Positions 10,492-60,321 of a stretch of 64,000 nt of DNA are shown in pieces. The notes below the pieces were generated by a model, which did no database searches, was not told the DNA's origin, and was given only the letters and a program-made list of their open reading frames with translations. Each line of letters starts with the position of its first letter. Position 1 is the first letter of the stretch. The position numbers and the translations under genes are program-made. Source of the DNA: Candidatus Aminicenantes bacterium JdFR-78 (GTDB lineage Bacteria; Acidobacteriota; Aminicenantia; JdFR-78); the NCBI GenBank assembly GCA_002010665.1, contig MTON01000027.1, positions 22,780 to 86,779 of the forward strand, given 5' to 3'.

Positions 10492-11100
10492 ATGCTTATT
10501 GTTGTAAGTGGACCATCAGGTAGTGGAAAATCAACTTTGTGTAGAAAGGTTTTAAATAATATTGAAAATCTCTTTTTCTCAGTTTCACATACTACTCGTG
10601 AAAGAAGGGAAAATGAGATTCACGGAAAAGATTATTACTTTATTTCAGAGGAACAATTTAAAAAAATGATTAAAAATAATGAATTTGTGGAGTGGGCAAT
10701 AGTCTATGGAAATTATTACGGAACTTCAAAAAAAGAAATTGAAGAAAAGGCTTCAAAAGGTGATTTGATCCTCGATATAGATGTACAAGGAGCATCTCAA
10801 ATAAAATCTAAATTTCAAGATGCAATTTTTATTTTTATCATGCCACCTTCTTTTGAGGAGTTAAGAAAAAGAATTATTAAAAGAGGAGATGAGGATTTTT
10901 TCTCTGTAGAGAAAAGGTTAAAGATTGCAAAAGAAGAAATAAAACATTACAGAGAATATGATTATTTAATTATTAATAATGAATTGAATAAAGCTGTAGA
11001 AGAGTTGGCATCAATAATCATAACTCAGAGATGTGCTCAGAGAAAGGATAGTATTGAGGTGAAAAGAATTATAGAATCATTCTGTGAGAAGGAGAAATGA
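10492..11100 (+). CDS. gmk: Guanylate kinase
   Basis: P-loop 'GPSGSGKSTL', 'SVSHTTR', 'YGTS', about 200 aa. Conserved yicC-gmk synteny. Confidence 0.9.
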   Translation: MLIVVSGPSGSGKSTLCRKVLNNIENLFFSVSHTTRERRENEIHGKDYYFISEEQFKKMIKNNEFVEWAIVYGNYYGTSKKEIEEKASKGDLILDIDVQGASQIKSKFQDAIFIFIMPPSFEELRKRIIKRGDEDFFSVEKRLKIAKEEIKHYREYDYLIINNELNKAVEELASIIITQRCAQRKDSIEVKRIIESFCEKEK

Positions 11101-12281
11101 GGAAAATTGCATTGGGCATATGTAGTTCAATAAGTATTTATAAATCAGCAGAAATTATTAGAGAATTTCAAAAGAAAGATATTAAAGTCAGAGTAATTAT
11201 GACTCGAAATGCAACTGAATTTATTCAGCCCTTGCTTTTTGAGGCTCTAACTGGAGAAAAGGTGATTGTAGACCAGTTTAAAAATTCAGCAGGGATTGAA
11301 CATATCTCTCTAGCAAATGAAATCTCCCTTCTTCTAATTGCACCCGCTACTGCGAATATAATAGGCAAACTTGCAAATGGCATAGCTGACGATTTTCTGA
11401 GCACATTCTATCTTGCAGTCAAATGCCCAGTAGTAATTGCTCCTTCAATGAATGAAAACATGTACTTAAATCCCATTACTCAAGAAAATCTTCGGAAGCT
11501 TAAATCCTTAGGAGTTATAATAATAGAACCAGAGGTAGGAGAGCTTGCCTGCGGAGTAAAAGGCATAGGAAGATTAGCAGAACCAGCAAAAATTGTAGAA
11601 GAATGTATTTCACTTATGGAAAGAAAGGATAGTTTAAGAGGAAAGAAAATTTTAATCACAGCTGGTCCAACACAAGAAAAAATTGATGCAGTAAGGTTTA
11701 TTTCTAATAAGTCATCAGGGAAAATGGGATATAGTCTCGCGAGAGAAGCTTTATGGAGAGGAGGGGAAGTAATACTCATTTCAGGTCCAACTTTTCTTCA
11801 GCCACCAAATAAAGCACAGGTAATAAAAGTTAATTCTGCTTTGGAAATGAGGGAACAGGTTATAAAGAATTACAAAGCCGCAGACATAGTTATAATGTGC
11901 GCTGCTGTTGCTGATTATAGACCTTCCAAAACTTATAAAACAAAAATTAAGAAAGAAGATGAAAAAATCAATATTGAACTTATTAGAAATCCCGATATTC
12001 TTGAGGAATTAGGTAGAAAAAAAGGGGATAAACTTTTAATTGGTTTTGCTGCAGAGACAGGGAATTTCATTGAGAATGCAAAAAAGAAAATGAAAAAAAA
12101 GAACTTAGATTTAGTTATTGTTAATGATGTTTCAAAGGAAAATATTGGTTTTGGTTCTGATTACAATCAGGTTATTCTAATAGATAAAAAGGGTGAAATT
12201 GAGAAAACGAAAATTTTAAGTAAAGTAGAAATAAGCAAAATAATTTTTGATAAAATTGAAAAGCTATTAAATGAGATTTGA
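11097..12281 (+). CDS. coaBC: Bifunctional phosphopantothenoylcysteine decarboxylase / phosphopantothenate-cysteine ligase
   Basis: N-terminal flavoprotein domain ('ICSSISIYK', 'PATANIIGKLANGIADD') and C-terminal CoaB ligase ('ITAGPTQEKIDAVRFISNKSSGKMG', 'AAVADY'). Confidence 0.9.
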   Translation: MRKIALGICSSISIYKSAEIIREFQKKDIKVRVIMTRNATEFIQPLLFEALTGEKVIVDQFKNSAGIEHISLANEISLLLIAPATANIIGKLANGIADDFLSTFYLAVKCPVVIAPSMNENMYLNPITQENLRKLKSLGVIIIEPEVGELACGVKGIGRLAEPAKIVEECISLMERKDSLRGKKILITAGPTQEKIDAVRFISNKSSGKMGYSLAREALWRGGEVILISGPTFLQPPNKAQVIKVNSALEMREQVIKNYKAADIVIMCAAVADYRPSKTYKTKIKKEDEKINIELIRNPDILEELGRKKGDKLLIGFAAETGNFIENAKKKMKKKNLDLVIVNDVSKENIGFGSDYNQVILIDKKGEIEKTKILSKVEISKIIFDKIEKLLNEI

Positions 12282-12933
12282 TAAGATTATTGAGGATATA
12301 AAAGAATGGTTGAAATTTTATTCAGAAATTGAAAGGGAAACCTATTTAGCATTGTCTTTGAAAGAGAATAATTTTGAAAAACTGGAGATTTTAAAGGAGA
12401 AAGTAAAAAATTGCAAGAAATGTAATCTTTCCAGTTCTCGAATAAATCCTGTTTTTGGAGAGGGAAACATAGAAGCAGACTTGATGTTCATCGGCGAAGC
12501 ACCTGGAGAAGAGGAAGATAAGAGAGGAAGACCTTTTGTGGGAAGAGCGGGTCAACTCCTTACAAAAATAATTTTAGCAATGAAGTTAAAGAGAGAAGAT
12601 GTCTATATAACAAATGTTGTGAAGTGCAGGCCACCAAGAAATAGAGATCCAAAAAATGATGAGATTTCTACCTGTCTTGGATATTTAATAGAACAGATAA
12701 AAATAATTAAACCAAAAGTAATAGTAACCTTAGGAAGAATTCCAGCAAAAGTTTTTATTAAAAGTTCCCAACCTATTACCCGATTAAGAGGAAATTTCTA
12801 TGATTATCAAGGCATAAAGCTTCTTCCCACTTATCATCCTTCATATTTAATCAGAAATGAAAGTAATATAAAACTTAAAAAAGAAGTGTGGTCTGATATG
12901 AAAAAAGTAATGGCCTTTCTTGGATTAGAATAA
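12271..12933 (+). CDS. Uracil-DNA glycosylase family 4 (4Fe-4S type)
   Basis: 'GEGN...[27 protein letters not shown]' motif A and C-terminal 'HPSYL' motif B of family-4 UDGs. Confidence 0.8.
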
Positions 12934-15081
12934 ATGGCAAATTTTGCTGAATTAGTTCTTCCTTTACCATTGAGTAAAACTTTATATTATAAAATTCCAT
13001 CACAATATAAAAATAGAATCAAAGAAGGAATGAGGGTTATTGTAGATTTGAAGAATAGAAAAATAACAGGTATTGTTGTGGGATTAATAGATAAAATTCC
13101 TCGAGAATTTTTAAAAGAATGTAAAGAGATAGAGGAAGTAATTGATGAAGAACCAGTAGTTTCAAAGTCCATTCTTGAATTGACCAGAAGATTTTCTGAT
13201 TATTATATTGTTCCGTGGGGGGAATTTATAAAATTAACTCTCCCTTCATCTTTAATTTTAAAAACTACTAAGAAAGTTTTTTTAACAGAAAAGGCAAAAA
13301 ATAAAAAAAATACTCAGAATCTATCAAAAAATGAGAAGGCTTTACTAAATTTTATTGGAAATAAATCCTATTCTGTTACTTTTCTTAAAAGAAAATTCAA
13401 AGATATTTCACCAATTCTTTCAAAGTTGAGTAGGAAAGGCTTAATAGAAATAAAAAACGAATTCAGAAAAATTAAGAAGAGAAAAGGTGCAAAGCCATTA
13501 GAAGAGGGGTTTTACCAATTAAAATTAGAGACGTTCATTCATTCTAAAGAAAAAGATAAAATAGATGAAATTATAAAGTCTATAAAAGATGAGAAGTCTT
13601 CTCAATTTTTAATTTTCGCTCCAGATAATATAAGAGTAAATTTATACTCTTATTTAATAAAAGAAACTATTTCAAAAGGTAAAAAAGTTCTCTTAATTCT
13701 ACCTGAAATTCTGTTAGTCAGAACAATATACGATGAGCTAAAAAAGAGAATAAATGTTAAAATAGGAATGTTTCATAGCGGTTTAACGCCCAGGGAAAGA
13801 GAGACAGAGTGGTTTAATATAAGAAATAATATGTATGACTTAATTATAGGTTCCCGCTCTTCAATATTTTTTCCCATTGAAAATCTCGGCTTGATAATTG
13901 TAGATAAAGAGGAGGATGAATCATATTTTTTGAAAAAGGACTATCCTTTTTACGATCTAAAGCAAATTGCTAAATTCAGAGCAAAAATAGAAAGTGTGAC
14001 ATTGGTATATGGCTCTGAGAGTCCATCAATTGAAAGTTATTATGAAGCATTGAAAAGAGGAGGTTTAATATCTTTAATAAGAGAGAAAAGATATGGTATG
14101 AAAGTTGTCATTAATTATCATTCAAAGAAAGAAACTAAAATAATAGGCGAAGAGCTTAAAAAGGAGATTAAAGAAAGATTAAGAAAAAACGAGCAAGTGA
14201 TTCTATTTGTTAATAGAAAAGGAGAGGAGGAGTTCCTTATATGTAAAAAATGCGGACTCTTACTCAAATGCAAAAATTGTAATTATCCCTATAATATTTA
14301 TAAAAGAGATAAAATAGTATGCTATTTCTGTAATTATATCCTTCCTCTCCCAAGTAATTGTCCAATTTGTAAAGGAGTTTTTAAAAGAATAATTGGAAAG
14401 GGAACTGGTTCTGTTTTAAAAGAAATTCAAAATCTATTTCCAGGGATAAAAGCGTGTAGATTTGACTCAGAAGCAATTAAAAATAGGAAAACAGAGACAA
14501 AAGTAATAAATGATTTCAATAAAGGTAAAGTGAAAATTCTAATTGGAACTCAGCTTCTAACCTATTATTACAATTTTAATAAAGTTTCGCTATTAGGAGT
14601 ATTATACCCAGAAAATATATTTGGAATTTCTGATTATAAAAGTGGGGAAAGATTTTTCCAAATTATGACTAATTTAAAAAAATTTGTTTCAGAAAAAGGT
14701 ACAATTTTTATTCAAACATCTTTTCCGGAGAATTACATTATCCAGATTTTAAAAGATTTTAATTATATTAAATTTTATAAAAGTGAACTTAAATTTAGAG
14801 AGTTATTTGAATATCCTCCTTTTTTTAAAATAGGAGAACTCATTTTTTATGGGAAAAATTTAAGAAATATAGCTAATAAGGCTCGTGTATTTTATTCTAA
14901 AATAAGAGAAAGTTCAGAAGACCTTAAAATTTATGAACCAGTTTTGCTACCGAAAATCCATGGAGAGTGCAGGGTGAGGATATTGATTAAAGCAAAAGAG
15001 GAAAGGATAATAGTTGATAATGTTAAAAAAGCATTGCAAGAAAATTTTCAGAGAAATTTTAACTTTATAATATATGCTTAG
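12934..15081 (+). CDS. priA: Primosomal protein N' (PriA) homolog with degenerate helicase ATPase motifs
   Basis: N-terminal 3'-DNA-binding domain and Cys4-Cys4 zinc region ('CKKCG...CKNC...CYFC...CPIC') typical of PriA. Walker A (GSGKT) position reads 'APDNIRV', Walker B DEEH reads 'DKEED', motif VI Arg-finger absent. Confidence 0.7.
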   Translation: MANFAELVLPLPLSKTLYYKIPSQYKNRIKEGMRVIVDLKNRKITGIVVGLIDKIPREFLKECKEIEEVIDEEPVVSKSILELTRRFSDYYIVPWGEFIKLTLPSSLILKTTKKVFLTEKAKNKKNTQNLSKNEKALLNFIGNKSYSVTFLKRKFKDISPILSKLSRKGLIEIKNEFRKIKKRKGAKPLEEGFYQLKLETFIHSKEKDKIDEIIKSIKDEKSSQFLIFAPDNIRVNLYSYLIKETISKGKKVLLILPEILLVRTIYDELKKRINVKIGMFHSGLTPRERETEWFNIRNNMYDLIIGSRSSIFFPIENLGLIIVDKEEDESYFLKKDYPFYDLKQIAKFRAKIESVTLVYGSESPSIESYYEALKRGGLISLIREKRYGMKVVINYHSKKETKIIGEELKKEIKERLRKNEQVILFVNRKGEEEFLICKKCGLLLKCKNCNYPYNIYKRDKIVCYFCNYILPLPSNCPICKGVFKRIIGKGTGSVLKEIQNLFPGIKACRFDSEAIKNRKTETKVINDFNKGKVKILIGTQLLTYYYNFNKVSLLGVLYPENIFGISDYKSGERFFQIMTNLKKFVSEKGTIFIQTSFPENYIIQILKDFNYIKFYKSELKFRELFEYPPFFKIGELIFYGKNLRNIANKARVFYSKIRESSEDLKIYEPVLLPKIHGECRVRILIKAKEERIIVDNVKKALQENFQRNFNFIIYA

Positions 15082-16144
15082 TCTTAAATTCTTTTTCAAC
15101 CTTTTCTTTAATCTTCAGCCAGTCTTCAAGAGGAATTGAGAGGAAAGCTTCCACAACTTTCGGATCAAACTGAGAGCCTGAGCATCTAATGATTTCTTTT
15201 TTTGCTTCTTCAATTGGGAGAGCTTTTCTATATGGCCGGTCAGAAATCAGAGCTTCCAGAGCATCTGCAACAGCGAATATCCTTGCTCCCAATGGGATGG
15301 AATTTCCCTTTAATTTCGCAGGATATCCATTTCCATCAAAGTGTTCATGGTGATGAAGGACTATTTGAGAGGCTTCCTTTAAGAATTTGATGCCTGATAT
15401 CATCTTATATCCTATAATAGGATGCTGTTTTATTATTTCCCATTCCTGAGTTGTTAATTTCCCTGGTTTTTTTAATATTTTATCAGGTATTCCAATTTTT
15501 CCAATATCATGGAGAAGTGCTCCCTTTCGTATATTTTCAAGTTCTTCGCCATCTTTAATTCCTATTTTTTTTGCAAGGGTTAAAGTAAATTGGGTAACAA
15601 CCTGCGAATGAGTTTGTGTCTCCGTATCTCTGGCATCCAAGGCCACAATAAATGACTCTAAAGTTGAGTTATATGTTGTTCTTAATTCCCTCAGAGTTTC
15701 TTCAAGATCAATTGTTTTCTGCTTTACTAATTCCTCCAAATTTTCCTGATATCTTTTATTCTCTAATATTAATCTTCTTCTTTCAAGGGCCTGCTCAACA
15801 GTTATTAATACTTCCTGTAACTTAAATGGCTTGGTTATATAATTAAAAGCTCCATTACTCATAGCTTCTATTGCAAGATCAATATCTCTTAAAGCAGAAA
15901 TCATAATAACCTCAATTTCGGGATAATTCTGTTTTATCTCCTTTAAAAGTTCTAATCCTGATTTGGTAGGCATTTTTATATCTGAAAGAACCAGGGAATA
16001 ATCATTTTCTGATTCGAGAATCTCCAATGCCTTTTCAGCAGATGGAGCAGAGGTGCAGTAATATCCCTTTGAAGTTAAAAAGTCAGATAAAAGATTTCTT
16101 ATTCCTTCTTCGTCATCAACTACTAATAATTTATCTGTTTTCAC
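15065..16144 (-). CDS. Response regulator with HD-GYP c-di-GMP phosphodiesterase output domain (RpfG-like)
   Basis: N-terminal REC ('LLVVDDE...D...K'), C-terminal 'HDIGK' and 'HHHEHFDGNGYP'. Confidence 0.85.
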   Translation of the reverse strand: MKTDKLLVVDDEEGIRNLLSDFLTSKGYYCTSAPSAEKALEILESENDYSLVLSDIKMPTKSGLELLKEIKQNYPEIEVIMISALRDIDLAIEAMSNGAFNYITKPFKLQEVLITVEQALERRRLILENKRYQENLEELVKQKTIDLEETLRELRTTYNSTLESFIVALDARDTETQTHSQVVTQFTLTLAKKIGIKDGEELENIRKGALLHDIGKIGIPDKILKKPGKLTTQEWEIIKQHPIIGYKMISGIKFLKEASQIVLHHHEHFDGNGYPAKLKGNSIPLGARIFAVADALEALISDRPYRKALPIEEAKKEIIRCSGSQFDPKVVEAFLSIPLEDWLKIKEKVEKEFKTKHIL

Positions 16145-16778
16145 TGGCTTTTTTCAGATTGTCAATAGCTCTTAACCAGAAATTTAATGAACGAATCTGA
16201 TTTTCTAAAAGATTCTTTTTATAAAGTTCTGAATTTTCTAATTCCTTTATTCTATCTAAATATTTCTTATTTTTTCTTGCATTATATAATTTTCTATAAA
16301 TATTAATTGCTTCCAAGATATGCCCCTGTTTGGCATATAATTCAGCCATAGAGGGTGTTAGAAAAATATCCCCGTCTTTTAATCCCCTCTCCCTTTTAAT
16401 TTTTTCTATGGTTTCCAATCTTTGTTCAATACTGTCATCCCATGGGTCTAAAAAAAGTGCTTTTTGGAAAGTTGTTTTAGCTTCCTCCCATTTTTGTTCA
16501 TGAGTTAAGATGTCTCCAAGTATTTTATAACCTGGTACATAATCTGGCTTCTCTTTCAAAATTGATTCGATTATTTCTTTTGCCTCTTTGTAACGTTTTA
16601 GATAATAAAGTAACTTCCCTTTAAGGAATTTTAGGGATGAGTAATCAGGGTGAAGTTTTTCTCCTTTTTCACATACTTCCAATGCTTTTTCTATTTCTCC
16701 AGAAGAGAAGTATTTTTCAGCTACTTTGAGAAAATCTTTCCCCTCTTTTAAAGTAATCTCGTTATTATTTGGTTCCAT
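16131..16778 (-). CDS. TPR-repeat protein
   Basis: Tandem 34-residue TPR-like repeats (W/LG/Y/A/F/A/P spacing). No signal peptide. Confidence 0.65.
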   Translation of the reverse strand: MEPNNNEITLKEGKDFLKVAEKYFSSGEIEKALEVCEKGEKLHPDYSSLKFLKGKLLYYLKRYKEAKEIIESILKEKPDYVPGYKILGDILTHEQKWEEAKTTFQKALFLDPWDDSIEQRLETIEKIKRERGLKDGDIFLTPSMAELYAKQGHILEAINIYRKLYNARKNKKYLDRIKELENSELYKKNLLENQIRSLNFWLRAIDNLKKASENR

Positions 16779-30354: not shown

Positions 30355-32268
30355 ATGAGTAAAATAATTGGGATCGACCTTGGAACAACAAATTCAGTTG
30401 TTGCAATTGTTGAAGGTGGAAAACCAACAGTAATTTTAAATGAGGAAGGGGGGAGAATAACACCATCTGTTGTTGCCTTTACTGATAAAGGGGAAAGATT
30501 AGTTGGTCAGGTTGCTAAAAGGCAGGCTATTACAAATCCTGAAAATACTGTTTATTCAATAAAAAGATTCATGGGTAGAAGATATGACGAAGTTTCAGAA
30601 GAAATTAAACAGGTCCCTTATAAAGTGATAAAGGCAAAGAATGGGGATGCATGGGTTGAAATAAGAGGAAAACAATACTCTCCTCCCCAGATTTCAGCAA
30701 TGATTCTCCAGAAACTGAAAAAAGCTGCTGAAGATTATCTTGGAGAAAAAGTTCAGAAGGCTGTTATAACTGTTCCAGCTTATTTCAATGATGCACAGCG
30801 TCAGGCAACTAAAGATGCTGGCACCATAGCTGGTCTTGAGGTTGTAAGAATTATAAACGAACCTACTGCAGCTGCTCTTGCTTACGGGATGGAAAAGAAA
30901 AAGGATCAAACCATTGCTGTTTTTGACTTTGGTGGAGGAACTTTTGATATATCCATTTTAGAGGTTGGTGAAGGCGTTGTTGAAGTTAAGGCAACAAATG
31001 GTGATACACATCTGGGAGGAGATGATATAGATCAAAAAATTATAGAATGGTTAGTTGAGGAATTTAAAAAAGAAACAGGTATTGATTTGAGCAAGGATAG
31101 AATGGCTCTCCAGAGGTTAAAGGAGGCTGCAGAGAAGGCAAAGATTGAGCTTTCAACCACTATGGAGACAGAGATCAATTTACCATTCATTACTGCAGAT
31201 GCCACTGGTCCAAAACACCTCGTTAAAAAACTTACAAGAGCAAAATTAGAGCAACTTGCTGAGCCTATTTTCCAGAGACTGATTCCTCCATGTGAGATAG
31301 CGTTAAAGGATGCGGGTTTAAAGCCCCATCAAATAGATGAAGTAATTTTAGTTGGTGGTTCAACAAGAATACCAAAAGTCCAGCAACTGGTCAAAGAATA
31401 TTTTGGTAAAGAACCACACAAAGGAGTGAATCCTGATGAAGTAGTTGCAATTGGAGCTGCAATTCAGGGAGCAGTTCTTGCAGGAGATGTTAAAGATGTT
31501 CTTCTTCTTGACGTGACTCCTTTAAGCCTTGGAATCGAGACACTTGGTGGAGTGTTTACAAAAATAATTCCTCGAAATACAACAATTCCAACAAGAAAAA
31601 GCGAAATTTTTACAACCGCCACTGATAATCAGACGAGTGTAGAAATACATGTGCTTCAGGGCGAAAGAGAGATGGCTGCTGATAATAAGTCTTTAGGGAG
31701 ATTTCATCTTGTTGGTATTCCTCCAGCACCAAGAGGAGTTCCAAAAATTGAGGTTACCTTTGATATAGATGCTAATGGAATTCTCCATGTTTCTGCTAAG
31801 GATTTAGGGACAGGGAAAGAACAGAAAATTACGATTACTGGGAGCAGTGGATTAACCAAAGAAGAAGTTGAAAGAATGGTTAAAGAGGCAGAAGAACATG
31901 CTGAAGAAGATAGAAGGAAAAGAGAGGCAGCAGAAGCGAGAAATAGGGCGGATAATCTGATTTATACAACCGAAAAGCTCATTAAAGAGAATAAAGATAA
32001 GATTCCACCCGAAGATTTGAAGGCTATTGAAAAAGAAATTGAAAATACCAAGAAGGCGATGGAAGGTGGGAATGTCAATGAAATCAATAAAGCTGTAGAA
32101 GCTTTGACTCAGGCATCTCATCGTATAGCTGAGGTAATTTATCGTGGAGCAACTCAGCAAGAACAGGCTTCCTCTCAAGGTGGGACATCCCAGCAGAAAA
32201 GTTCGGGAGATGATTATATAGATGCTGAAGTTGTAGATGAAGGTGATGGTAAGGATAAAACTAACTAA
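30355..32268 (+). CDS. dnaK: Molecular chaperone DnaK (Hsp70)
   Basis: '[10 protein letters not shown]', 'DLGGGTFD', '[11 protein letters not shown]', full-length Hsp70 with acidic C-terminus. Confidence 0.95.
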
Positions 32269-32273
32269 TAAAA

Positions 32274-33362
32274 ATGAAGGATTATTATAAGATCCTGGGT
32301 GTAAGTAGAAATGCTACACTTGATGAGATAAAAAAAGCTTATAAAAAATTAGCCAGAAAATACCATCCTGATCTAAATCCTGGGGACAAGGAAGCAGAAG
32401 AAAGATTCAAAGAAATCCAGGAGGCATACTCAGTTCTAAGTGACCCGAAGAAAAGAGAACAATATGATAGATTTGGATTTGTAGGGGATTTTCGGCAAGC
32501 TGATTCCCAGGATTTCTACACAGGATTTGCAGGTTTTGATTTCTCAGAATTTGGCACATCAACTTTTAAGGATTTCTTTGACGCATTTTTTGGGAGGACA
32601 ACACCAAAATGGGGTCCAGAGAAAGGAGAAGACCTTCATTATACAATGACTATAAGTTTTGAGGATTCGATAAAGGGCTTGAGAACAAGGATTAAATTGT
32701 TCAGAAGGGATACTTGTCCGAGTTGTGGAGGGTATGGATACTCAAAAGGAAAAGAAATAATTTGCCCTGCATGTGGAGGAAGTGGTAAAATAAACCTGCA
32801 AAGAGGATTTATGAAATTTTACACTACTTGCTCAAATTGTCATGGCACTGGGAAAATTCCAGGAGAACCTTGCTATTATTGCAAAGGTGGAGGTTTAATA
32901 GAGAAGGAAGAAATAGTAAATGTAAGGATTCCTCCTGGTGTGGATAATGGATCAATTGTAAGAATTTCAGGAAAGGGGAACGGAGGTCTGAGAGGAGGTC
33001 CTCCTGGTGATCTTTTCATAACAATACAGGTTAATCCTCATCCATTTTTTGAAAGAAAGGGTAAAAATATTTATTGTACGATCCCTATCACAGTAACAGA
33101 AGCTGCACTTGGAGCAAAAATTGAAGTACCAACTCTCGAAGGTAAGGCTACTATTAAAATTCCTCCAGGTACCTCAAGTGGTCAGAAATTCAGATTAAAG
33201 GGTAGAGGAGTTCCCTTTCTAAAGGGAGATGGTAGAGGAGATTTATTTGTGGAAGTTAAAATAGTTCCTCCTCCATCAGAGGATGTCAGGGTTAGGGATT
33301 TGTTAAAAGAGCTTGATAGAATTACCAATTTTAATCCAAGAAAAAATTTAAAAGTGAGTTAA
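32274..33362 (+). CDS. dnaJ: Molecular chaperone DnaJ (Hsp40, type I)
   Basis: J domain with 'HPD', G/F-rich region, four CxxCxGxG zinc repeats, C-terminal domains. Confidence 0.9.
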
Positions 33363-33363
33363 A

Positions 33364-33786
33364 ATGATGGAAGATAAGAAAAAAAGAGAAGAAAGAAAGA
33401 AATATTACATGATTAGTACAGTAGCAAAACTGTATAATATTCATCCTCAAACTTTGCGGCTCTATGAGAGAGAGGGATTACTTAAACCATCTCGTACAGA
33501 AGGGAATACAAGGTTGTATTCAGAGGAGGATTTAAGACAGCTCGAAATTATTCTAAATTTAACGAGAGAATTGGGAGTTAATTTAGCAGGAGTTGAGATC
33601 ATTCTAAATATGAGAAAAAAAATGGAGGAAATGCAAAAGGAGGTAAATGAATTATTGAATTATATAAAAAGAGAATTTTTTGAGGGCAGAGAAAGAGAAT
33701 TTGAATTTTTAAGAAAATCTCTTGTAAAAACAACTCCAGCTAAGGTAATAAAAATAGAAAAAATAGAAGAAAAAAATAATGCCTAA
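33364..33786 (+). CDS. hspR: MerR-family heat-shock repressor HspR
   Basis: MerR-type HTH 'YMISTVAKLYNIHPQTLRLYEREGLLKPSRTEGNTRLYS' directly after dnaK-dnaJ, as in hspR operons. Confidence 0.7.
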   Translation: MMEDKKKREERKKYYMISTVAKLYNIHPQTLRLYEREGLLKPSRTEGNTRLYSEEDLRQLEIILNLTRELGVNLAGVEIILNMRKKMEEMQKEVNELLNYIKREFFEGREREFEFLRKSLVKTTPAKVIKIEKIEEKNNA

Positions 33787-34627
33787 AAAATCCAAAAATT
33801 TATTTATTTCCAATAATTTAAAAATTTATTTAAAGGAAATCTCAAAATTCCCTTTGCTAAGTGAAGAGGAAGAGAAAGAACTTGCAAAAAGAATCAGAAA
33901 AGGAGATAATGGAGCTTTAAAAAAACTGGTTGAATGTAATCTTCGCTTTGTTGTGCATTATGCAAAAAAATATAGAGGTTTTGGACTTTCCTTTCTTGAC
34001 TTGATAAATGAGGGAAATAAAGGATTGATAGAAGCTGCTAAAAGATATGATCCATCAAAAAATGTAAAGTTTATATCCTATGCTGTATGGTGGGTTAGAC
34101 AGGCGATTATTCAAGCACTTTCGGAGTACTCTCATATTTATACTCTTCCAACAAAGGTTGCAAACCTAAGAAGCCGTGTAAGAGAAGCAGAGGCTAAGTT
34201 AAAAAGGCAATTAAGACGTGAACCATATAGGGATGAAATAGCTGATGAGCTCGATCACCCTTTGGAAGAAATTGATGATATATACGACCTAAGTAAAGAA
34301 GATTTATCATTAAACGATACATTTATTGATGAAACGAGGGAACTGGCAGAGACATTGAAAGATGAAACTACCCCTTCAGTTGAATATCAGATCATTAAAC
34401 TATTCATTGAAAAGCAGATTCGCCAAGTGCTCAATGAACTTGATGAAAGGGAGGCATTAGTATTAAAATTAAGATTTGGAATTGAAGATAATCAGCCAAA
34501 AACTCTAAGAGAAATAGGAGAAATGTTAAATATTTCCCGTGAAAGGGTTAGACAGATAGAAAAAAGGGCTAAAGAAAAATTAGCTCGTCTTAAAAAAGTT
34601 CAACAATTGAGAGGTTATTTGAATTAA
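33779..34627 (+). CDS. RNA polymerase sigma factor, sigma-70 family (group 3-like)
   Basis: Regions 2 ('LINEGNKGLIEAAKRYDP...YAVWWVRQAI'), 3 and 4 ('LREIGEMLNISRERVRQIEKRA'). 282 aa, no region 1.1. Confidence 0.8.
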   Translation: MPKKSKNLFISNNLKIYLKEISKFPLLSEEEEKELAKRIRKGDNGALKKLVECNLRFVVHYAKKYRGFGLSFLDLINEGNKGLIEAAKRYDPSKNVKFISYAVWWVRQAIIQALSEYSHIYTLPTKVANLRSRVREAEAKLKRQLRREPYRDEIADELDHPLEEIDDIYDLSKEDLSLNDTFIDETRELAETLKDETTPSVEYQIIKLFIEKQIRQVLNELDEREALVLKLRFGIEDNQPKTLREIGEMLNISRERVRQIEKRAKEKLARLKKVQQLRGYLN

Positions 34628-34628
34628 G

Positions 34629-35381
34629 ATGAAAGATAAAACATGTGAAATCTGTCAGGGAACAGGATGGATTATTGAGGAAAAAGATGGAAATACATTT
34701 GCAAGAAGGTGTGACTGTTTTGAAAAAGAGAAGATTAACTATTTATTGTCTTCAGCTCGGATTCCACCTCGCTATCAACATTGCACTTTCGAAAATTTTG
34801 ATCCTCAGAATGCTTCCCAGAAAAGAGCATTAAAAATATCTAAAAAATTTGTTGAAAATTATCCTATTCAAGATATTGGGCTTTTATTCTTAGGCCCTTG
34901 TGGTGTTGGGAAAACGCATCTTGCTGTTGCAATATGTCATGAATTGATTAAAACAAAGGCGGTTCCTTGTCTGTTTTATGATTTTAGAGAATTAATCAAA
35001 GATATTCAGTCTTCGTATTCTTCTGAGTCTGAATTTACTGAATCAGAAATTCTTCTTCCAGTAATTGAGACAGAAATTCTTGTTCTTGATGAACTTGGTG
35101 CTAAAAGACCGAGTAGTTGGGTAGAGGAAATGCTCTTTTATATTATTAATCAGAGATATAATAAGAAGAAACTGACTATTTTTACTTCTAATTTTCCAGA
35201 TGAAATAGAAAAAGAAGAGACTACTTTTACTCCAGATTTGATAAAAAGTAAAGACGAAGAAACACTTACAGACAGGATTGGCTATAGACTTCGTTCAAGA
35301 ATTTATGAAATGTGTAAAACAGTAGAAATTGAAGGAGAGGATTTTCGAAAAAAAGTTAGACAAGGAAGTTATCGCTTTTAA
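34629..35381 (+). CDS. DnaC/DnaI/IstB-like AAA+ ATPase with N-terminal Cys4 zinc-binding motif (putative helicase loader)
   Basis: N-terminal 'CEICQGTG...CDC'. Walker A 'GPCGVGKTHLA', Walker B 'LVLDELG', about 250 aa. Confidence 0.55.
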   Translation: MKDKTCEICQGTGWIIEEKDGNTFARRCDCFEKEKINYLLSSARIPPRYQHCTFENFDPQNASQKRALKISKKFVENYPIQDIGLLFLGPCGVGKTHLAVAICHELIKTKAVPCLFYDFRELIKDIQSSYSSESEFTESEILLPVIETEILVLDELGAKRPSSWVEEMLFYIINQRYNKKKLTIFTSNFPDEIEKEETTFTPDLIKSKDEETLTDRIGYRLRSRIYEMCKTVEIEGEDFRKKVRQGSYRF

Positions 35382-47601: not shown

Positions 47602-49644
47602 ATGAGAAATAAAAGTTTTATCCTCACAGTAATTTTAAGTTTATTATTAATTTTACCTGCCTTTTCTGGTGAAAAGCATGCAATAACCTTTGATGATTTT
47701 ATTAAAATTAAAAGAATAGGTGATTCTCAACTGTCTCCTGATGGAAAATCAGTTGCTTTTGTAATAACAGAGATGAATAAAGAGGAGAATACAAGCAATA
47801 GTGATATCTGGCTTGCATCTATTGATGGAAAATTGCTTCGGAAGTTAACTTCTTCTCCAAAGGCGGATTACAGACCTCGATGGTCACCAGATGGCAAGAA
47901 AATCGCTTTTATATCCACACGCAGTGGTTCTCCGCAGATTTGGATGATTAATTTGAGAGGAGGTGAGGCATATCAAGTTACTGATGTTCCAACCGGAGTT
48001 TCAGGATTTATCTGGTCACCTGATGGTAAGTATCTGATTTATGCTTCAAAGGTCTATCCAGATTGTCCTGATGAAAAGTGCAATAAAGAGAGAGAAGAAA
48101 AGAAGAAAAAAAGTAAAGTAAAAGCGAAAATTTTTGATAGTTTGTTGTTCAGACACTGGGATGAATGGAGAGATGAGAAGAGAAGTCACCTGTTTTTGTA
48201 TTCAATAGATGAGAAAAAAGCAGTAGATTTAACCCCTGGTAATTATGATTGCCCTCCAATAGCTCTGGGAAGTGCTCATGATTACGATTTCTCTCCGGAT
48301 GAGAAGGAAGTATGCTTTGTGATGAATACAGATCCGGTGGTGGCAACCAGCACAAATAATGATTTATTTATTGTTTCTCTTGAGACAAAAGAAATTAAGA
48401 GGCTCACTGAAAATAAAGCTAACGATAATTCTCCTCATTATTCTCCTGATGGTAAATATATAGCCTATCGTGCTATGGAAAGACCTGGTTTTGAATCAGA
48501 TAAATATTCATTAATGATATATGATAGAGAAACCGGGAAGACAATTAATTTAACCGAGGATTTTGACCTTTCAATCGGAAATATTGTGTGGTCACCTGAC
48601 AGTAAATATATTTATTTCTCATGCCAGGAAAAAGCTCGTCGACCAATTTATCGGGTGTCCATAAAGAAAAAGAAAATTGAGAAAATTCTGGATGGAGTAA
48701 CAACCGGAAATTTCATGTTAACTCCTGATGGTAAGACCATTATTTTTGAGAGAGAGGCGATTAATTTACCTAAAGAGATATTTAAATATGATATTAAAAA
48801 GAAAAAAATAGAACAGATTACCAGAATAAATGAAGAGATTCTTTCAAAATTAGAGATGAATTCCCTCGAGGAATTCTGGTTCACTGGAGCAGATGGAGAT
48901 AAGGTCCATGGTCTTCTTCTTAAGCCTCCTTTCTTTGATCCTTCTAAGAAATATCCTTTAGTGATGCTAATACACGGAGGGCCTCAGGGAGCATGGGAAG
49001 ATGAATTTCACTATCGCTGGAACGCACAGATGTTTGCCTCCCCTGGATATGTGGTTGTAATGATAAATTTTCATGGAAGCACGGGTTACGGACAGGCTTT
49101 CACTGATAGTATTACAGGAGATTGGGGAGGAAAACCCTTTGAAGATTTAATGGCTGGATTAACATATGTCCTTGCAAATTACGATTTTATAGATCCGAAT
49201 TTAAAAGCTGCAGCTGGTGCGTCATATGGCGGATATATGATAAACTGGATAGAAGGTCATACGAATCGTTTTAAATGCTTGATTTCTCATGCAGGAGTTT
49301 TTGATTTAAGAAGCATGTATGGAGCAACAGAAGAATTGTGGTTCCCTGAATGGGAATTTAAAGGAACGCCATGGACAAATCCTGAAATGTATGAGAAATT
49401 TTCACCGAGCTATTATGTTCGGTATTTTAAGACTCCATGTCTTGTGATTCACGGTCAAAATGATTTCAGAGTTCCCGTCACTCAGGGTTTCCAGATGTTC
49501 ACCTCTCTTCAAAGGATGGGAGTTCCTTCAAAACTTGTTTATTTTCCTGATGAAACCCATTTCGTGCAAAAACCGCAGAATGCTGAGCTGTGGTGGAAAG
49601 TAGTTCATGAATGGCTGGCTAAATACTTAAAATCTGGAAAATAA
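47602..49644 (+). CDS. S9-family serine peptidase (acylaminoacyl-peptidase / prolyl oligopeptidase type) with N-terminal beta-propeller
   Basis: Signal peptide. Repeated 'SPDGK' propeller blades. C-terminal alpha/beta hydrolase with nucleophile elbow 'GASYGGYM', Asp and His downstream. Confidence 0.85.
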   Translation: MRNKSFILTVILSLLLILPAFSGEKHAITFDDFIKIKRIGDSQLSPDGKSVAFVITEMNKEENTSNSDIWLASIDGKLLRKLTSSPKADYRPRWSPDGKKIAFISTRSGSPQIWMINLRGGEAYQVTDVPTGVSGFIWSPDGKYLIYASKVYPDCPDEKCNKEREEKKKKSKVKAKIFDSLLFRHWDEWRDEKRSHLFLYSIDEKKAVDLTPGNYDCPPIALGSAHDYDFSPDEKEVCFVMNTDPVVATSTNNDLFIVSLETKEIKRLTENKANDNSPHYSPDGKYIAYRAMERPGFESDKYSLMIYDRETGKTINLTEDFDLSIGNIVWSPDSKYIYFSCQEKARRPIYRVSIKKKKIEKILDGVTTGNFMLTPDGKTIIFEREAINLPKEIFKYDIKKKKIEQITRINEEILSKLEMNSLEEFWFTGADGDKVHGLLLKPPFFDPSKKYPLVMLIHGGPQGAWEDEFHYRWNAQMFASPGYVVVMINFHGSTGYGQAFTDSITGDWGGKPFEDLMAGLTYVLANYDFIDPNLKAAAGASYGGYMINWIEGHTNRFKCLISHAGVFDLRSMYGATEELWFPEWEFKGTPWTNPEMYEKFSPSYYVRYFKTPCLVIHGQNDFRVPVTQGFQMFTSLQRMGVPSKLVYFPDETHFVQKPQNAELWWKVVHEWLAKYLKSGK

Positions 49645-55800: not shown

Positions 55801-56140
55801 TGGAGATATTTTCCCTTATAGATTTAAGAAATATAAACTTGGAAAGTTAATTGGAAAACGGACATGGGGAGGCGTTGTTGGTATCAGAGGCACTTTACCT
55901 CTTGTTGATGGTGGATATTTAATGAAACCTGAATTTGCTATTTATGATACAGAAGGGAAGAAGTGGATTATTGAGGGTCATGGTGTGGAACCTGATATCT
56001 ATGTGGATAATGACCCAGCGAAAGAGTATGCTGGAATAGATGAACAGTTGAATAAAGCTATTGAAGTTATTCTTGAAGAGCTGAAGACAAAAGAAAAAGA
56101 ATTACCTCCACCACCACCTTATCCAAAGAAAGATAAATGA
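52853..56140 (+). CDS. Tricorn-protease homolog (S41 family) with tandem beta-propellers and PDZ domain
   Basis: 1095 aa, signal peptide, repeated 'SPDGK' blades, PDZ. C-terminal S41 catalytic domain ('VRGNGGG', 'FSASDGD', 'EGHGVEPD'). Confidence 0.8.
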   Translation: MKLKSIFVFILAFILCYGIVYAPQEARVLRFPAIYKDQIVFTYAGDLYTVSAKGGIARKLTSHEGYEMFARFSPDGKMIAFTAEYDGNREVYVMPSKGGIPKRVTYTPVLRRDDVADRMGPNNIVMGWKHDNKHIVFRSRMREWNSFNGQLYLVPCDGGTPVQLPLPRGGFCSFSPDDKKLAYNRIFREFRTWKRYRGGMADDIWIYDFETKKVTNITNNPAQDIIPMWSGDKIYFLSDRDENKRMNLYVYDLKTKQTRKLTNFTEYDIKFPSLGPDAIVFEYGGYIYRFDLKTEKVSKVPIFIADDMVTGRDKIINVKDYITTFHVSPGGKRALFGARGEIFTIPIKYGNTRNLTNTSGVHERNPRWSPDGKWIAFISDKSGTGEIYIMRQDGSGKPEQLTFNGDTYKYEILWSPDGKKIMWSDKKLRLNYVDVETKKVVQVAKADIWEIRQYCWSPDSKWIAYAKPEVKGMTKIYLYNLDTKKTYEVTEGWYSSYAPCFSSDGKYLFFVSDREFNPVYSRVEWNYAYLAMAKIYFVTLRRDIKSPFEPKSDEVEIKEKEKKLPESKSKKGKEKKVKEKKKVVEVKIDPVGLKDRIIALPIETANYWHITSIGDRIYYMKRKDLERKSYLMMYDLKAQKETNLGNIDRYEISPDKKKMIIRKGKDYAIIDLPVSPIKIKEKLDLSHMEMKLNRKEEWNQIFNECWRHMKYFFYDPNMHGVDWEAMRRKYEPLARAVNHRADLTYVIGEMIGELNVGHAYVGGGDVPKVKRIKVGMLGAQFERDPKTGYYKIVKILKGQNWSKRLRSPLTEVGVNVKEGEYLIAINGKPTNKMKDMYEALVNTVGKQVKLKVNSKPTEKGAREVVVVPIESEQDLYYYNWVQKNIEKVNKATNGKAGYIHIPDMGRRGLNEFVKYFYPQLRKKALIIDVRGNGGGNVSPMIIERLRREIAMIGIARNTVPSPDPEALILGPKVCLIDEFSASDGDIFPYRFKKYKLGKLIGKRTWGGVVGIRGTLPLVDGGYLMKPEFAIYDTEGKKWIIEGHGVEPDIYVDNDPAKEYAGIDEQLNKAIEVILEELKTKEKELPPPPPYPKKDK

Positions 56141-57601: not shown

Positions 57602-57602
57602 G

Positions 57603-57908
57603 CTATGTTTTAGTGTAGGGGCAGCATCTACTATAAGAAGCTACTGGCTCGTTATTAATAATGCACTGGCATAAAACGCATTCTCTTGAACCGCCATCAA
57701 TTCCACAAAAAACGTCCTCGCAATAACCAAATGTCTCACAAAAAATAATAAGAAATCCTTCTCTGCTTCGTTCGCAAATAAGGGAGGCTCGGCAGTGTTT
57801 TCTTTCTGCCGCATGAACAAATTTTACCACCATAAGTATTGCTAAAATTAGTGCTATCCCAATGCTTAAACCAATTAAAAGATGTTTGTTTTTTGATAAA
57901 CTTTTCAT
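57603..57908 (-). CDS. Small Cys-rich protein with N-terminal signal/anchor (101-aa class)
   Basis: N-terminal hydrophobic helix then 11 Cys in about 65 aa. SD 'AAGGGGA' 6 nt upstream. Stop lies 1 nt from the start of the downstream beta-propeller gene. Confidence 0.5.
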   Translation of the reverse strand: MKSLSKNKHLLIGLSIGIALILAILMVVKFVHAAERKHCRASLICERSREGFLIIFCETFGYCEDVFCGIDGGSRECVLCQCIINNEPVASYSRCCPYTKT

Positions 57909-57911
57909 TTT

Positions 57912-59849: not shown

Positions 59850-59877
59850 TACGTTTATTGACTTCTTAAATCTCGTT

Positions 59878-60300: not shown

Positions 60301-60321
60301 ACTTAAACTAATTATTATAAA

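What the first reader, a model, noticed from the sequence alone, without database searches (positions are those of the whole stretch)
12934..15081. PriA homolog with all helicase ATPase motifs degenerate
The protein keeps the PriA N-terminal 3'-end-binding domain and the Cys-rich zinc region, but the Walker A position reads 'APDNIRV' where PriA has GxGKT. Walker B DEEH reads 'DKEED', and the motif VI 'GRAGR' arginine finger is missing. An ATPase-dead PriA could still load the replisome through protein-DNA interactions but not unwind. Together with the zinc-finger DnaC-like loader nearby (34629-35381), this suggests an unusual restart pathway
Basis: seen in the sequence. Interest (0 to 1): 0.6.

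Follow-up and report, generated by a model that had tools for sequence, protein, structure and literature searches.

The report
ATPase-dead PriA restart protein (Aminicenantes)
This gene is the replication-restart protein PriA of an Aminicenantes bacterium that has lost every residue needed to burn ATP but kept its DNA-fork-binding and zinc parts; the whole lineage shares this, making it a second natural "pseudohelicase" PriA lineage after the Deinococcus-Thermus one.

Summary
ORF 12934-15081 (+, 715 aa) is a full-length PriA by NCBIfam, by a PDB sequence match to E. coli PriA, and by predicted fold. Its Walker A reads APDNIRV, Walker B reads DKEED and motif VI reads NLKKFVSEKG. The Q-motif Gln, motif III and the motif V Lys-Gly are also gone, and no P-loop exists elsewhere in the protein or in any reading frame.

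It is not an error or a decaying gene. Thirty-seven cluster representatives of about 716 aa (two of the clusters are labelled Candidatus Aminicenantes) form one clade with the same losses. They sit in the ancestral gmk-coaBC-udg-priA slot, and dN/dS is about 0.16. ATP-site residues lost constraint, while the 3'BD, motifs Ia/Ib/Ic, all eight zinc cysteines and the CTD stayed conserved. Arg replaces the Walker A Lys, as in Deinococcus-Thermus PriA.

Most likely it is an ATP-independent fork-recognition scaffold that recruits DnaB, like D. radiodurans PriA and E. coli PriA K230R/A. So it is a new member of a known kind.

The "DnaC-like" ORF is an ordinary DnaC/DnaI-type loader 19.5 kb away and does not indicate an unusual pathway.

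Two caveats remain. I could not check for a second, canonical PriA elsewhere in these genomes. The public record of this contig carries one extra G at 13217-13222, which splits the gene.

The parts
12934..15081 (+). priA ortholog (715 aa plus TAG), a predicted pseudohelicase
   Evidence: ORF; TIGR00595 at 354 bits, above the 230 cutoff; E. coli PriA 8fak E=1e-71; AF2 model pLDDT 82.9, Foldseek 8fak_H E=2.5e-49, TM 0.78/0.86
12934..13248 (+). 3' DNA-binding domain (aa 1-105), conserved
   Evidence: Pfam PF17764 E=3.9e-24; canonical invariants Y19, P22, G32, G46, D71, P104 kept in the clade. The column of the SSB-tail pocket Trp (R86 here) is W in 91% of canonical PriAs and 0% in the clade (PMC5531588)
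13217..13222 (+). G6 run inside codons W95-G96-E97; the public record has G7 here, which splits the gene
   Evidence: the only difference in 4,875 bases. Orthologs use TGG GGA GA and are intact
13249..13533 (+). short winged-helix region plus linker (aa 106-200); the linker aa 180-199 is predicted disordered
   Evidence: AF2 secondary structure and pLDDT; about 100 aa shorter than in most canonical PriAs (alignment A1)
13549..13551 (+). position of the invariant upstream Gln (Q-motif position), here Glu206
   Evidence: Q in 100% of 105 canonical PriAs and 3% of the clade
13618..13638 (+). remnant of Walker A (APDNIRV): one residue shorter, no Gly-Lys-Thr, Arg234 in place of the Lys
   Evidence: R at this column in 89% of the clade
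13699..13710 (+). motif Ia (LPEI), conserved DNA-contact motif
   Evidence: P257 and E258 kept in the clade
13903..13917 (+). remnant of Walker B (DKEED in place of DEEHD): the second-position Glu is replaced by Lys and the His by Glu
   Evidence: D324 and E326 kept, E325 present in only 51% of the clade
14014..14022 (+). remnant of motif III (SES in place of SAT)
   Evidence: A362 in 11% and T363 in 22% of the clade, against 99-100% in canonical PriAs
14242..14370 (+). Cys-rich region with all eight zinc-ligand cysteines
   Evidence: C437, C440, C446, C449, C463, C466, C476, C479 are invariant or nearly so in the clade and in canonical PriAs
14545..14571 (+). motif V: GT kept, the Lys-Gly replaced (GTQLLTYYY)
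   Evidence: G538 and T539 kept; K544 and G545 at 0% in the clade against 99% in canonical PriAs
14671..14700 (+). remnant of motif VI (NLKKFVSEKG), with no Gln, no Gly and no arginine fingers
14809..15078 (+). C-terminal domain, including YPPF and the clade-specific invariants E635, R644, R651
   Evidence: Pfam PF18074 E=4.3e-5, just under the cutoff; fold match; clade-specific columns
10492..12933 (+). upstream co-directional genes gmk, coaBC and udg: the conserved ancestral priA neighbourhood

Best explanation
This is the vertically inherited PriA of the Aminicenantes lineage. It has become a pseudohelicase: the two-lobe SF2 core survives only as a DNA-binding scaffold, because the nucleotide pocket has been erased. 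The protein still recognises abandoned forks or D-loops. The 3'BD would hold the nascent 3' end, and the WH, helicase-lobe surface, CRR and CTD would hold the parental duplex and the lagging-strand template. On binding, it would present a docking surface through which the replicative helicase DnaB is recruited, either directly or with a DnaC/DnaI-type loader. It cannot translocate or unwind, so it can act only where the lagging-strand template is already single-stranded or where another helicase has cleared it. Shown here: PriA identity and fold; complete loss of the ATP-site residues; retention of the DNA-contact, zinc and CTD residues; clade-wide conservation; purifying selection; positional orthology. 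Inferred: fork binding, DnaB recruitment, absence of ATPase activity, and that this is the only PriA in the cell. Arg234 (89% conserved, in place of the Walker A Lys) plausibly salt-bridges the retained D324/E326 to stabilise the empty pocket. The clade-specific invariants (Q195, D341, P559-E560, E635, R644, R651) are candidate new interface or latch residues. Both of these last points are speculation.
For: PriA identity. Motif loss with no alternative P-loop. Clade of 37 representatives at 50% identity, about 716 aa each, all lacking GKT and GRxGR; the clade is monophyletic in 46 of 50 bootstraps with motif columns removed. Selective relaxation: of 115 columns that are at least 90% conserved in 105 canonical PriAs, 62 are lost, including Q206, all of Walker A, E325, A362/T363, K544/G545 and Q580/G583/R584. 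The other 53 are kept, including 3'BD residues, P257/E258, H281, G306/R308/S309, NRxG, 8 Cys, G538/T539 and Y627-P628-P629. Purifying selection: dN/dS 0.16, with 39.5 synonymous and 20.5 non-synonymous changes at dS 0.078, and intact ORFs in all six loci examined. Same syntenic slot in all relatives examined. The same gmk-coaBC-udg-priA order occurs next to a canonical PriA in Acidobacteriota MAG L084, and yicC-gmk-coaBC-priA occurs in Bacillota. Precedents: D. radiodurans PriA has K->R in Walker A, no ATPase or helicase activity, binds forks and binds DnaB (PMC4504706). E. coli PriA K230R supports restart through PriA-PriB in vivo, and K230A loads DnaB in vitro (PMC5778457; PMC10175261).
Against: No biochemistry exists for any member. 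I could not scan whole Aminicenantes genomes, so a second, canonical PriA cannot be excluded (searches were uninformative). PriA is the fastest-evolving of the 11 syntenic genes and dN/dS 0.16 is not very low, so constraint is relaxed relative to its neighbours. The conserved SSB-tail pocket Trp is lost, so at least one canonical interaction has probably changed. In the public record this particular genome's copy is frameshifted. The downstream partner is unknown.
Confidence: 0.68

Rival explanations
1. It is a PriA-derived paralog or neofunctionalised protein, for example a fork- or D-loop-binding regulator or blocker. Restart would then be carried out by a canonical PriA encoded elsewhere, or by a PriA-independent route.
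For: Whole genomes were not searchable. The gene evolves faster than all its neighbours. It has new clade-specific invariant residues and has lost the SSB-pocket Trp.
Against: It occupies the ancestral priA slot shared with canonical PriAs of Acidobacteriota and Bacillota in every genome examined. No canonical PriA labelled Aminicenantes appeared among the named hits. No second PriA is present in the 64-kb window. All PriA-specific domains are retained.
Confidence: 0.2
2. It is still an active ATPase/helicase that uses a non-canonical nucleotide site, for example Arg234 with D324/E326, or the weak 'second nucleotide site' proposed for E. coli PriA.
For: Arg234, D324 and E326 are conserved in the clade. 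About half of the clade keeps DEEH or DEEQ. A second, weaker nucleotide site has been proposed for E. coli PriA (PMC5778457).
Against: The adenine-reading Gln position, all P-loop glycines and Thr, motif III, the motif V Lys-Gly and both motif VI arginines are lost and variable across the clade. K230R alone abolishes E. coli PriA ATPase activity, and the natural K->R PriA of D. radiodurans has no measurable ATPase activity (PMC4504706). No alternative P-loop exists.
Confidence: 0.05
3. It is a decaying pseudogene or an assembly or sequencing artefact.
For: The public record of this contig has an extra G in a G-run that splits the gene into 112-aa and 624-aa ORFs. PriA is the most diverged gene in the neighbourhood.
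Against: The window copy is an uninterrupted 715-aa ORF. Six orthologous loci at 33-66% identity have no internal stops. The same motif states recur in 37 independent cluster representatives from many samples. dN/dS is 0.16. All eight Cys and dozens of PriA invariants are retained. The AF2 model is confident.
Confidence: 0.04

Closest known systems
Deinococcus radiodurans (Deinococcus-Thermus) PriA pseudohelicase (Lopper, Boone & Morrow 2015, PMC4504706)
   Same: A natural PriA with poor matches to Walker A and Walker B. Arg stands in place of the Walker A Lys, the rest of the PriA architecture is retained, and the change is shared lineage-wide. For D. radiodurans it was shown experimentally that there is no ATPase or helicase activity while ssDNA binding, fork binding and a DnaB interaction are kept. 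That is the model proposed here.
   Different: Different phylum (Aminicenantota, placed with or within Acidobacteriota). Other Acidobacteriota have canonical PriA in the same synteny, so the loss looks independent. Here the P-loop glycines and Thr are also gone, with a one-residue deletion, and the Q-motif position, motif III, the motif V K-G, both motif VI arginines and the SSB-pocket Trp are lost. The paper describes only motifs I and II.
E. coli PriA K230R/K230A/K230D (priA300), engineered ATPase-dead PriA
   Same: No ATPase, helicase or translocase activity, yet the protein is competent for primosome assembly and DnaB loading (PMC5778457, PMC10175261). This shows that the restart-scaffold function can be separated from the motor.
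   Different: Those are single point mutants in an otherwise canonical protein that works through PriB and DnaT; they are defective in the PriA-PriC route. No PriB, DnaT or PriC was seen here, but the window is only 64 kb.
Canonical PriA (E. coli 8fak/6dcr, K. pneumoniae 4nl4/6dgd; TIGR00595)
   Same: The same six-domain architecture and fold (3'BD, WH, HD1, HD2, CRR, CTD), the same eight zinc cysteines, and the same gene neighbourhood as in Bacillota and Acidobacteriota.
   Different: All catalytic ATP-site residues are absent, the WH/linker region is shorter (about 716 aa against about 730-830), and it is the fastest-evolving gene in its neighbourhood.
Actinobacterial 'primosome assembly protein PriA' (NCBIfam PRK14873 models)
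   Same: From my memory only: database annotation treats these PriAs as lacking recognisable helicase motifs. NCBI's name for these models omits 'helicase'.
   Different: Not verified here; three literature searches found no supporting statement. The window protein matches these models only weakly (131 bits or less against cutoffs above 800), so it is not a member of that subfamily.

Membership tests
PriA (primosomal protein N' / replication restart protein; TIGR00595, PF17764 + PF18074) | N-terminal 3' DNA-binding domain | tested here: met
   PF17764 E=3.9e-24 at residues 7-104; PDB 2d7e 3'BD E=2.2e-8
PriA (primosomal protein N' / replication restart protein; TIGR00595, PF17764 + PF18074) | Family-level sequence score above the curated cutoff | tested here: met
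   TIGR00595 at 354.3 bits against a cutoff of 230.35; the subfamily-specific PRK05580 equivalog models all score below their cutoffs
PriA (primosomal protein N' / replication restart protein; TIGR00595, PF17764 + PF18074) | Six-domain PriA fold with a two-lobe SF2 core | tested here: met
   AF2 model pLDDT 82.9, pTM 0.79; Foldseek 8fak_H E=2.5e-49, TM 0.78/0.86; the next family, Mfd, scores E~1e-12
PriA (primosomal protein N' / replication restart protein; TIGR00595, PF17764 + PF18074) | Cys-rich region with 8 Cys (two zinc sites) inserted in helicase lobe 2 | tested here: met
   All 8 Cys are aligned and invariant or nearly so. Zinc binding itself was not tested.
PriA (primosomal protein N' / replication restart protein; TIGR00595, PF17764 + PF18074) | C-terminal domain (PriA_C) | tested here: met
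   PF18074 E=4.3e-5 (24.7 bits, just under the 26.9 cutoff); supported by the full-length fold match and the conserved YPPF
PriA (primosomal protein N' / replication restart protein; TIGR00595, PF17764 + PF18074) | Catalytic SF2 motifs I (GxxGSGKT), II (DEEH), VI (QxxGRxGR) | tested here: not met
   APDNIRV, DKEED and NLKKFVSEKG; no P-loop elsewhere. It is therefore a PriA homolog and ortholog, but not a PriA helicase.
PriA (primosomal protein N' / replication restart protein; TIGR00595, PF17764 + PF18074) | Orthology: sits in the ancestral priA gene neighbourhood | tested here: met
   gmk-coaBC-udg-priA is shared with the canonical PriA of L084; yicC-gmk-coaBC-priA occurs in Bacillota
PriA (primosomal protein N' / replication restart protein; TIGR00595, PF17764 + PF18074) | Fork/D-loop binding and primosome assembly activity | not testable with these tools
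   Needs biochemistry or genetics
PriA pseudohelicase (as defined for Deinococcus-Thermus, PMC4504706) | Walker A Lys replaced (K->R), with poor matches to motifs I and II | tested here: met
   R234 aligns with E. coli K230 in both the HMMER and MAFFT alignments; R in 89% of the clade
PriA pseudohelicase (as defined for Deinococcus-Thermus, PMC4504706) | Motif loss is lineage-wide and the gene is maintained by selection | tested here: met
   37 cluster representatives, monophyletic; dN/dS 0.16
PriA pseudohelicase (as defined for Deinococcus-Thermus, PMC4504706) | No ATPase or helicase activity, with retained DNA and DnaB binding | not testable with these tools
   Predicted from sequence only
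PriA pseudohelicase (as defined for Deinococcus-Thermus, PMC4504706) | Common descent with the Deinococcus-Thermus PriA clade | not tested
   No Deinococcus or Thermus PriA sequence was obtainable. Synteny with canonical Acidobacteriota PriA argues for an independent, in-place loss.
DnaC/DnaI replicative-helicase loaders (ORF 34629-35381) | AAA+ domain of the DnaC/DnaI/IstB clade with intact Walker A and B | tested here: met
   GPCGVGKT and LVLDELG; PF01695 E=1e-17; Aquifex DnaC 3ecc 4e-30, DnaI 2qgz 7e-20, E. coli DnaC 6qel 8e-17, IstB 5e-9; PRK08116 at 164 bits, below its 189 cutoff
DnaC/DnaI replicative-helicase loaders (ORF 34629-35381) | Functional or genomic linkage to priA | tested here: not met
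   19.5 kb away, after dnaK-dnaJ-merR-sigma70; no IstA transposase next to it

The most novel reading that the evidence does not exclude
Across candidate phylum Aminicenantota, the only PriA is an anciently fixed, completely nucleotide-free scaffold. The loss would be independent of Deinococcus-Thermus and convergent on the same Lys-to-Arg change. The pathway would be rewired: the SSB-tail pocket is lost and new invariant CTD residues R644, R651 and E635 have appeared. Replication restart in a whole phylum would then run without any PriA motor activity, and the minimal, ATP-independent function of PriA (a fork-triggered conformational switch that recruits DnaB) could be studied in a natural protein.
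Probability: 0.5. Interest if true: 0.5.

Novelty: new member of a known kind. Interest (0 to 1): 0.4.

Why it matters
[quoted passage not shown] A second, deeply branching lineage has erased the ATP site more thoroughly while keeping the gene under selection at the ancestral locus. This strengthens the view that PriA's essential job is structure-specific fork recognition and loader recruitment, not unwinding. It also provides a natural contrast set of 53 retained and 62 lost invariant columns, which maps the PriA residues that serve the scaffold function as opposed to the motor function. On the practical side, these proteins are currently auto-annotated as "primosomal protein N'", and TIGR00595, whose name is "replication restart helicase PriA", scores the window protein above its cutoff; the "helicase" label should not be taken at face value.

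Tried and rejected
(1) An alternative P-loop or DExH elsewhere in the protein or in another frame: none found.
(2) A genome-contig scan with the 35-sequence alignment failed because it had no sufficiently conserved stretch. It was useful only as a control (79 of 79 usable loci canonical) and for synteny.
(3) A homolog search with the canonical PriA of the Acidobacteriota MAG L084, meant to detect a hypothetical second, canonical PriA in Aminicenantes, was saturated by relatives above 61% identity, the few named ones being Acidobacteriota. It was uninformative.
(4) Midpoint rooting of the NJ tree placed the root inside the long-branched clade. I redid it with a canonical outgroup.
(5) dN/dS between the window and its nearest relatives (55-66% aa identity) would be saturated, so I used a closer pair from cluster P0123 instead.
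(6) Literature checks for an Aminicenantes PriA report found nothing relevant. Checks for actinobacterial PriA lacking helicase motifs found nothing either, so that point remains memory only.
(7) Rfam, tRNA and tandem-repeat scans of the window found nothing relevant.
(8) The pseudogene/artefact reading was rejected at the clade level.
(9) Reading ORF 34629-35381 as an IS21 IstB was rejected: DnaC and DnaI hits are much stronger, and there is no IstA neighbour.
Full report
**1. What is in the sequence**

The window holds an uninterrupted ORF at 12934..15081 on the + strand (715 aa). Its ATG directly follows the stop codon of an upstream uracil-DNA glycosylase gene.

The protein is a PriA by every test:
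- TIGR00595 priA scores 354 bits against a cutoff of 230.
- Pfam finds PriA_3primeBD (E=3.9e-24) and PriA_C.
- phmmer against the PDB gives E. coli PriA 8fak at E=1e-71, aligned over residues 5-639.
- An AlphaFold2 model (pLDDT 82.9, pTM 0.79) matches full-length PriA structures by Foldseek: 8fak_H at E=2.5e-49 with TM 0.78/0.86. The next family, Mfd, scores about 1e-12.

The source organism is Candidatus Aminicenantes bacterium AC-335-G13, NCBI candidate phylum Aminicenantota.

**2.

In the residue-by-residue alignment with E. coli PriA:

| Motif | E. coli PriA | Window protein |
|---|---|---|
| Walker A | GVTGSGKT | (F)APDNIRV, with Arg234 opposite Lys230 |
| Walker B | DEEHD | DKEED |
| Motif III | SAT | SES |
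| Motif V | GTQMLAKGHHF | GTQLLTYYYNF |
| Motif VI | QVAGRAGRAG | NLKKF---VSE |

- Translating the exact coordinates confirms these strings.
- There is no GK[ST], GxGK, DExH or GRxGR anywhere in the protein, and no P-loop in any of the six frames of the region.
- Of the 120 best homologs from the 5.8-billion-protein index, the 115 outside the close clade are all canonical at all five motifs.
- 79 of 79 usable PriA loci from unrelated genomes are canonical too.

**3. It is a lineage trait, not an error or a dying gene**

*Extent of the clade.*
- The window protein and P0002-P0005 (66% down to 33% identity) share a Walker A that is one residue shorter and has no Gly-Lys-Thr, and they lack motif VI.
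- A profile of these five, searched against 1.84 billion cluster representatives, found further representatives of about 716 aa with the same features. Together with the starting sequences, 37 were counted as the degenerate clade.
- Two of the clusters carry the NCBI label Candidatus Aminicenantes.
- With the motif columns removed, these 37 form a single clade in 46 of 50 NJ bootstraps. Their internal diversity (1.29 substitutions per site) is as large as that among the other 117 PriAs in the set (1.21).

*Position in the genome.*
- In every relative whose DNA I fetched on a long contig, the gene sits in the same slot: asd-ABC-yicC-gmk-coaBC-udg-priA, then the pilQ-pilO-pilN-pilM cluster (pilMNOQ) on the opposite strand. 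On shorter fragments, udg is still immediately upstream.
- The same gmk-coaBC-udg-priA order flanks a canonical 847-aa PriA in an Acidobacteriota MAG (L084).
- yicC-gmk-coaBC-priA occurs in Bacillota.
- The degenerate gene is therefore the in-place descendant of an ordinary priA.

*Selection.*
- Two members of one cluster differ by 39.5 synonymous and 20.5 non-synonymous changes (dS 0.078, dN/dS 0.16).
- Six orthologous loci have no internal stops.
- PriA is nonetheless the most diverged of the 11 syntenic genes in every comparison, for example 55% identity against 67-90% for its neighbours, and 34% against 39-56%. This fits partial relaxation of constraint.

**4. Which residues lost constraint**

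I compared 105 canonical PriAs with the 37 clade members, column by column. Of the 115 columns that are at least 90% conserved in canonical PriAs:

- **62 are lost in the clade.**
  - The invariant Gln 23 residues upstream of Walker A, which is the Q-motif position (100% falling to 3%).
  - Every Walker A residue. The Lys becomes Arg in 89% of the clade.
  - The second-position Glu of DEEH (51%).
  - Motif III Ala and Thr.
  - Motif V Lys-Gly (0%).
  - Motif VI Gln, Gly and Arg (0-19%).
  - K333 in the aromatic-rich-loop region.
- **53 are kept.**
  - 3'BD residues Y19, P22, G32, G46, D71 and P104.
  - Motif Ia (P257, E258), motif Ib (H281) and motif Ic (G306, R308, S309).
  - D324 and E326.
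  - The NRxG motif.
  - All eight cysteines.
  - G538 and T539.
  - D567.
  - Y627-P628-P629.

This is the typical signature of a pseudoenzyme: the catalytic pocket decays while the binding scaffold is maintained.

Two further points:
- The column of the SSB-tail pocket Trp is W in 91% of canonical PriAs and 0% in the clade. This is Trp82 of K. pneumoniae PriA, the one pocket residue also conserved in S. aureus PriA (PMC5531588).
- The clade has its own near-invariant residues that are rare in canonical PriAs: Q195, R234, D341, L542, P559-E560, E635, R644 and R651.

The window's own low-GC subclade (with P0002 and P0003) is among the most degenerate, with DKEED, NRKG and Tyr in place of the CRR His residues.

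**5. How it most likely works**

Established knowledge:
- E. coli PriA K230R lacks ATPase, helicase and translocase activity, yet supports restart through the PriA-PriB route in vivo (PMC5778457).
- K230A is used routinely to load DnaB in vitro (PMC10175261).
- In the fork-bound cryo-EM structure, fork binding itself pivots the CRR. This forms an ssDNA pore and exposes the partner-docking surface (PMC10175261).
- The natural K-to-R PriA of D. radiodurans has no ATPase or helicase activity but binds ssDNA and forks with near-normal affinity and binds DnaB directly (PMC4504706).

By analogy, I propose that the Aminicenantes protein is an ATP-independent fork or D-loop sensor. DNA-triggered rearrangement would recruit DnaB, directly or through a DnaC/DnaI-type loader. 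It could act only where the lagging-strand template is already single-stranded.

Shown here: identity, fold, motif loss, the retention pattern, selection and orthology. Inferred: DNA binding, partner recruitment, lack of ATPase activity, and that this is the sole PriA.

One weak lead: the AF2 model superposes better on the fork-bound conformation (8fak, rmsd 5.0) than on the apo structures (6dcr at 8.6; 4nl4 and 6dgd at about 13). I do not rely on this.

**6. The nearby "DnaC-like" ORF**

- ORF 34629-35381 (250 aa) has an N-terminal CxxC-x18-CxC and an intact AAA+ site (GPCGVGKT, LVLDELG).
- Its best matches are Aquifex DnaC (3ecc, 4e-30), DnaI (2qgz), E. coli DnaC (6qel) and only then IstB.
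- It follows dnaK-dnaJ-merR-sigma70, 19.5 kb from priA, with no IstA beside it.

It is a plausible housekeeping helicase loader. From my own knowledge, an N-terminal zinc module is the normal DnaI architecture. It adds nothing unusual and is not linked to priA.

**7. Comparison with what is known, and novelty**

- The kind, a natural PriA pseudohelicase, is already described for Deinococcus-Thermus.
- The library holds no report of PriA motif loss in Aminicenantes.
- Other Acidobacteriota (Solibacteraceae, Bryobacteraceae, Pyrinomonadales, gp4, L084) have canonical PriA. The loss therefore appears independent and specific to this lineage.
- It goes further than what the Deinococcus paper describes, which covers motifs I and II only.
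- I could not align it against a Deinococcus sequence, and I could not verify my recollection that actinobacterial PriAs are annotated as lacking helicase motifs.
- About ten other scattered PriAs in the profile hits also have damaged motifs while their nearest neighbours are canonical. One of them is from Candidatus Omnitrophota. Motif loss may therefore recur.

Verdict on novelty: a new member of a known kind.

**8. Caveats**

- Whole genomes could not be scanned, so a second, canonical PriA is not excluded.
- The deposited contig differs from the window by one extra G at 13217-13222. That splits the gene into a 112-aa 3'BD ORF and the 624-aa protein NCBI annotates. Orthologs read TGG GGA GA at this site and are intact, so a homopolymer error is the likelier explanation, but a real frameshift in that single cell is possible.
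- There is no biochemistry for any member.

**9. Scores**

Interest is 0.4. The finding is real, clean and lineage-wide, and it is useful for separating PriA's scaffold function from its motor function. The concept and the likely mechanism are already published.

Noticed in passing
window 13217-13222 (against L091 = GCA_024179005.1 JAMZSG010000002.1): The public record of this contig is identical to the window over 4,875 bases except for one extra G (G7 against G6) in codons W95-G96-E97 of priA. In the record the gene is split into a 112-aa 3'BD ORF and a 624-aa ORF, which NCBI annotates as 'primosomal protein N'' starting MFRGG. Orthologs use TGG GGA GA and are intact.
   Followed up: yes
proteins P0158, P0175, P0202, P0211, P0218, P0234, P0235, P0237, P0262: About ten other PriA cluster representatives outside the Aminicenantes clade (655-823 aa) also lack one or more of GKT, DEEH and GRxGR, yet their nearest neighbours are canonical. 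One (P0237) belongs to Candidatus Omnitrophota. PriA motor loss may have happened repeatedly in uncultured lineages. The hit list was biased towards degenerate sequences by the query profile.
   Followed up: partly
window 34629-35381 (+): A DnaC/DnaI-family AAA+ helicase-loader homolog with an N-terminal CxxC-x18-CxC zinc-ribbon-like motif and intact Walker A and B. It lies directly after a sigma-70 gene (33779-34627) and a dnaK-dnaJ-merR (hspR-like) cluster (30355-33786). Its best PDB match is Aquifex aeolicus DnaC.
   Followed up: partly
window residue 86 of PriA (nt 13189-13191) and clade-wide: The Trp of the SSB C-terminal-tail pocket (K. pneumoniae Trp82; W in 91% of canonical PriAs) is absent from all 37 clade members, so the PriA-SSB contact is probably lost or remodelled along with the motor.
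   Followed up: partly
window 15065-16144 (-) and 16131-16778 (-): A response-regulator/HD-GYP-type (HD_5) gene converges on priA and overlaps its 3' end by 17 nt, followed by a TPR protein. This pair is present in the low-GC relatives (L004, L005) but absent at the same position in the more distant clade members L001 and L002, so it is an insertion between priA and the pilQ-pilO-pilN-pilM (pilMNOQ) cluster.
   Followed up: partly
window 47602-49644 and 52853-56140 (+); 56462-61446 (-): A prolyl-oligopeptidase (S9) gene and a 1,095-aa tricorn-type protease (PD40 + Tricorn_C1 + PDZ + S41), followed by a low-GC (26-28%) stretch that encodes two NHL/DUF5128 beta-propeller paralogs. From my own knowledge, this fits the peptide-degrading lifestyle attributed to Aminicenantes; nothing unusual was seen.
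   Followed up: no
AF2 model mde0ba432905c: The predicted structure superposes better on the fork-bound, CRR-pivoted E. coli PriA (8fak_H, rmsd 5.0, TM 0.86 normalised by target length) than on the apo structures (6dcr rmsd 8.6; 4nl4 and 6dgd about 13). This could hint at a default 'loader' conformation, or it could be an artefact of prediction or of which residues are modelled in each entry.
   Followed up: no
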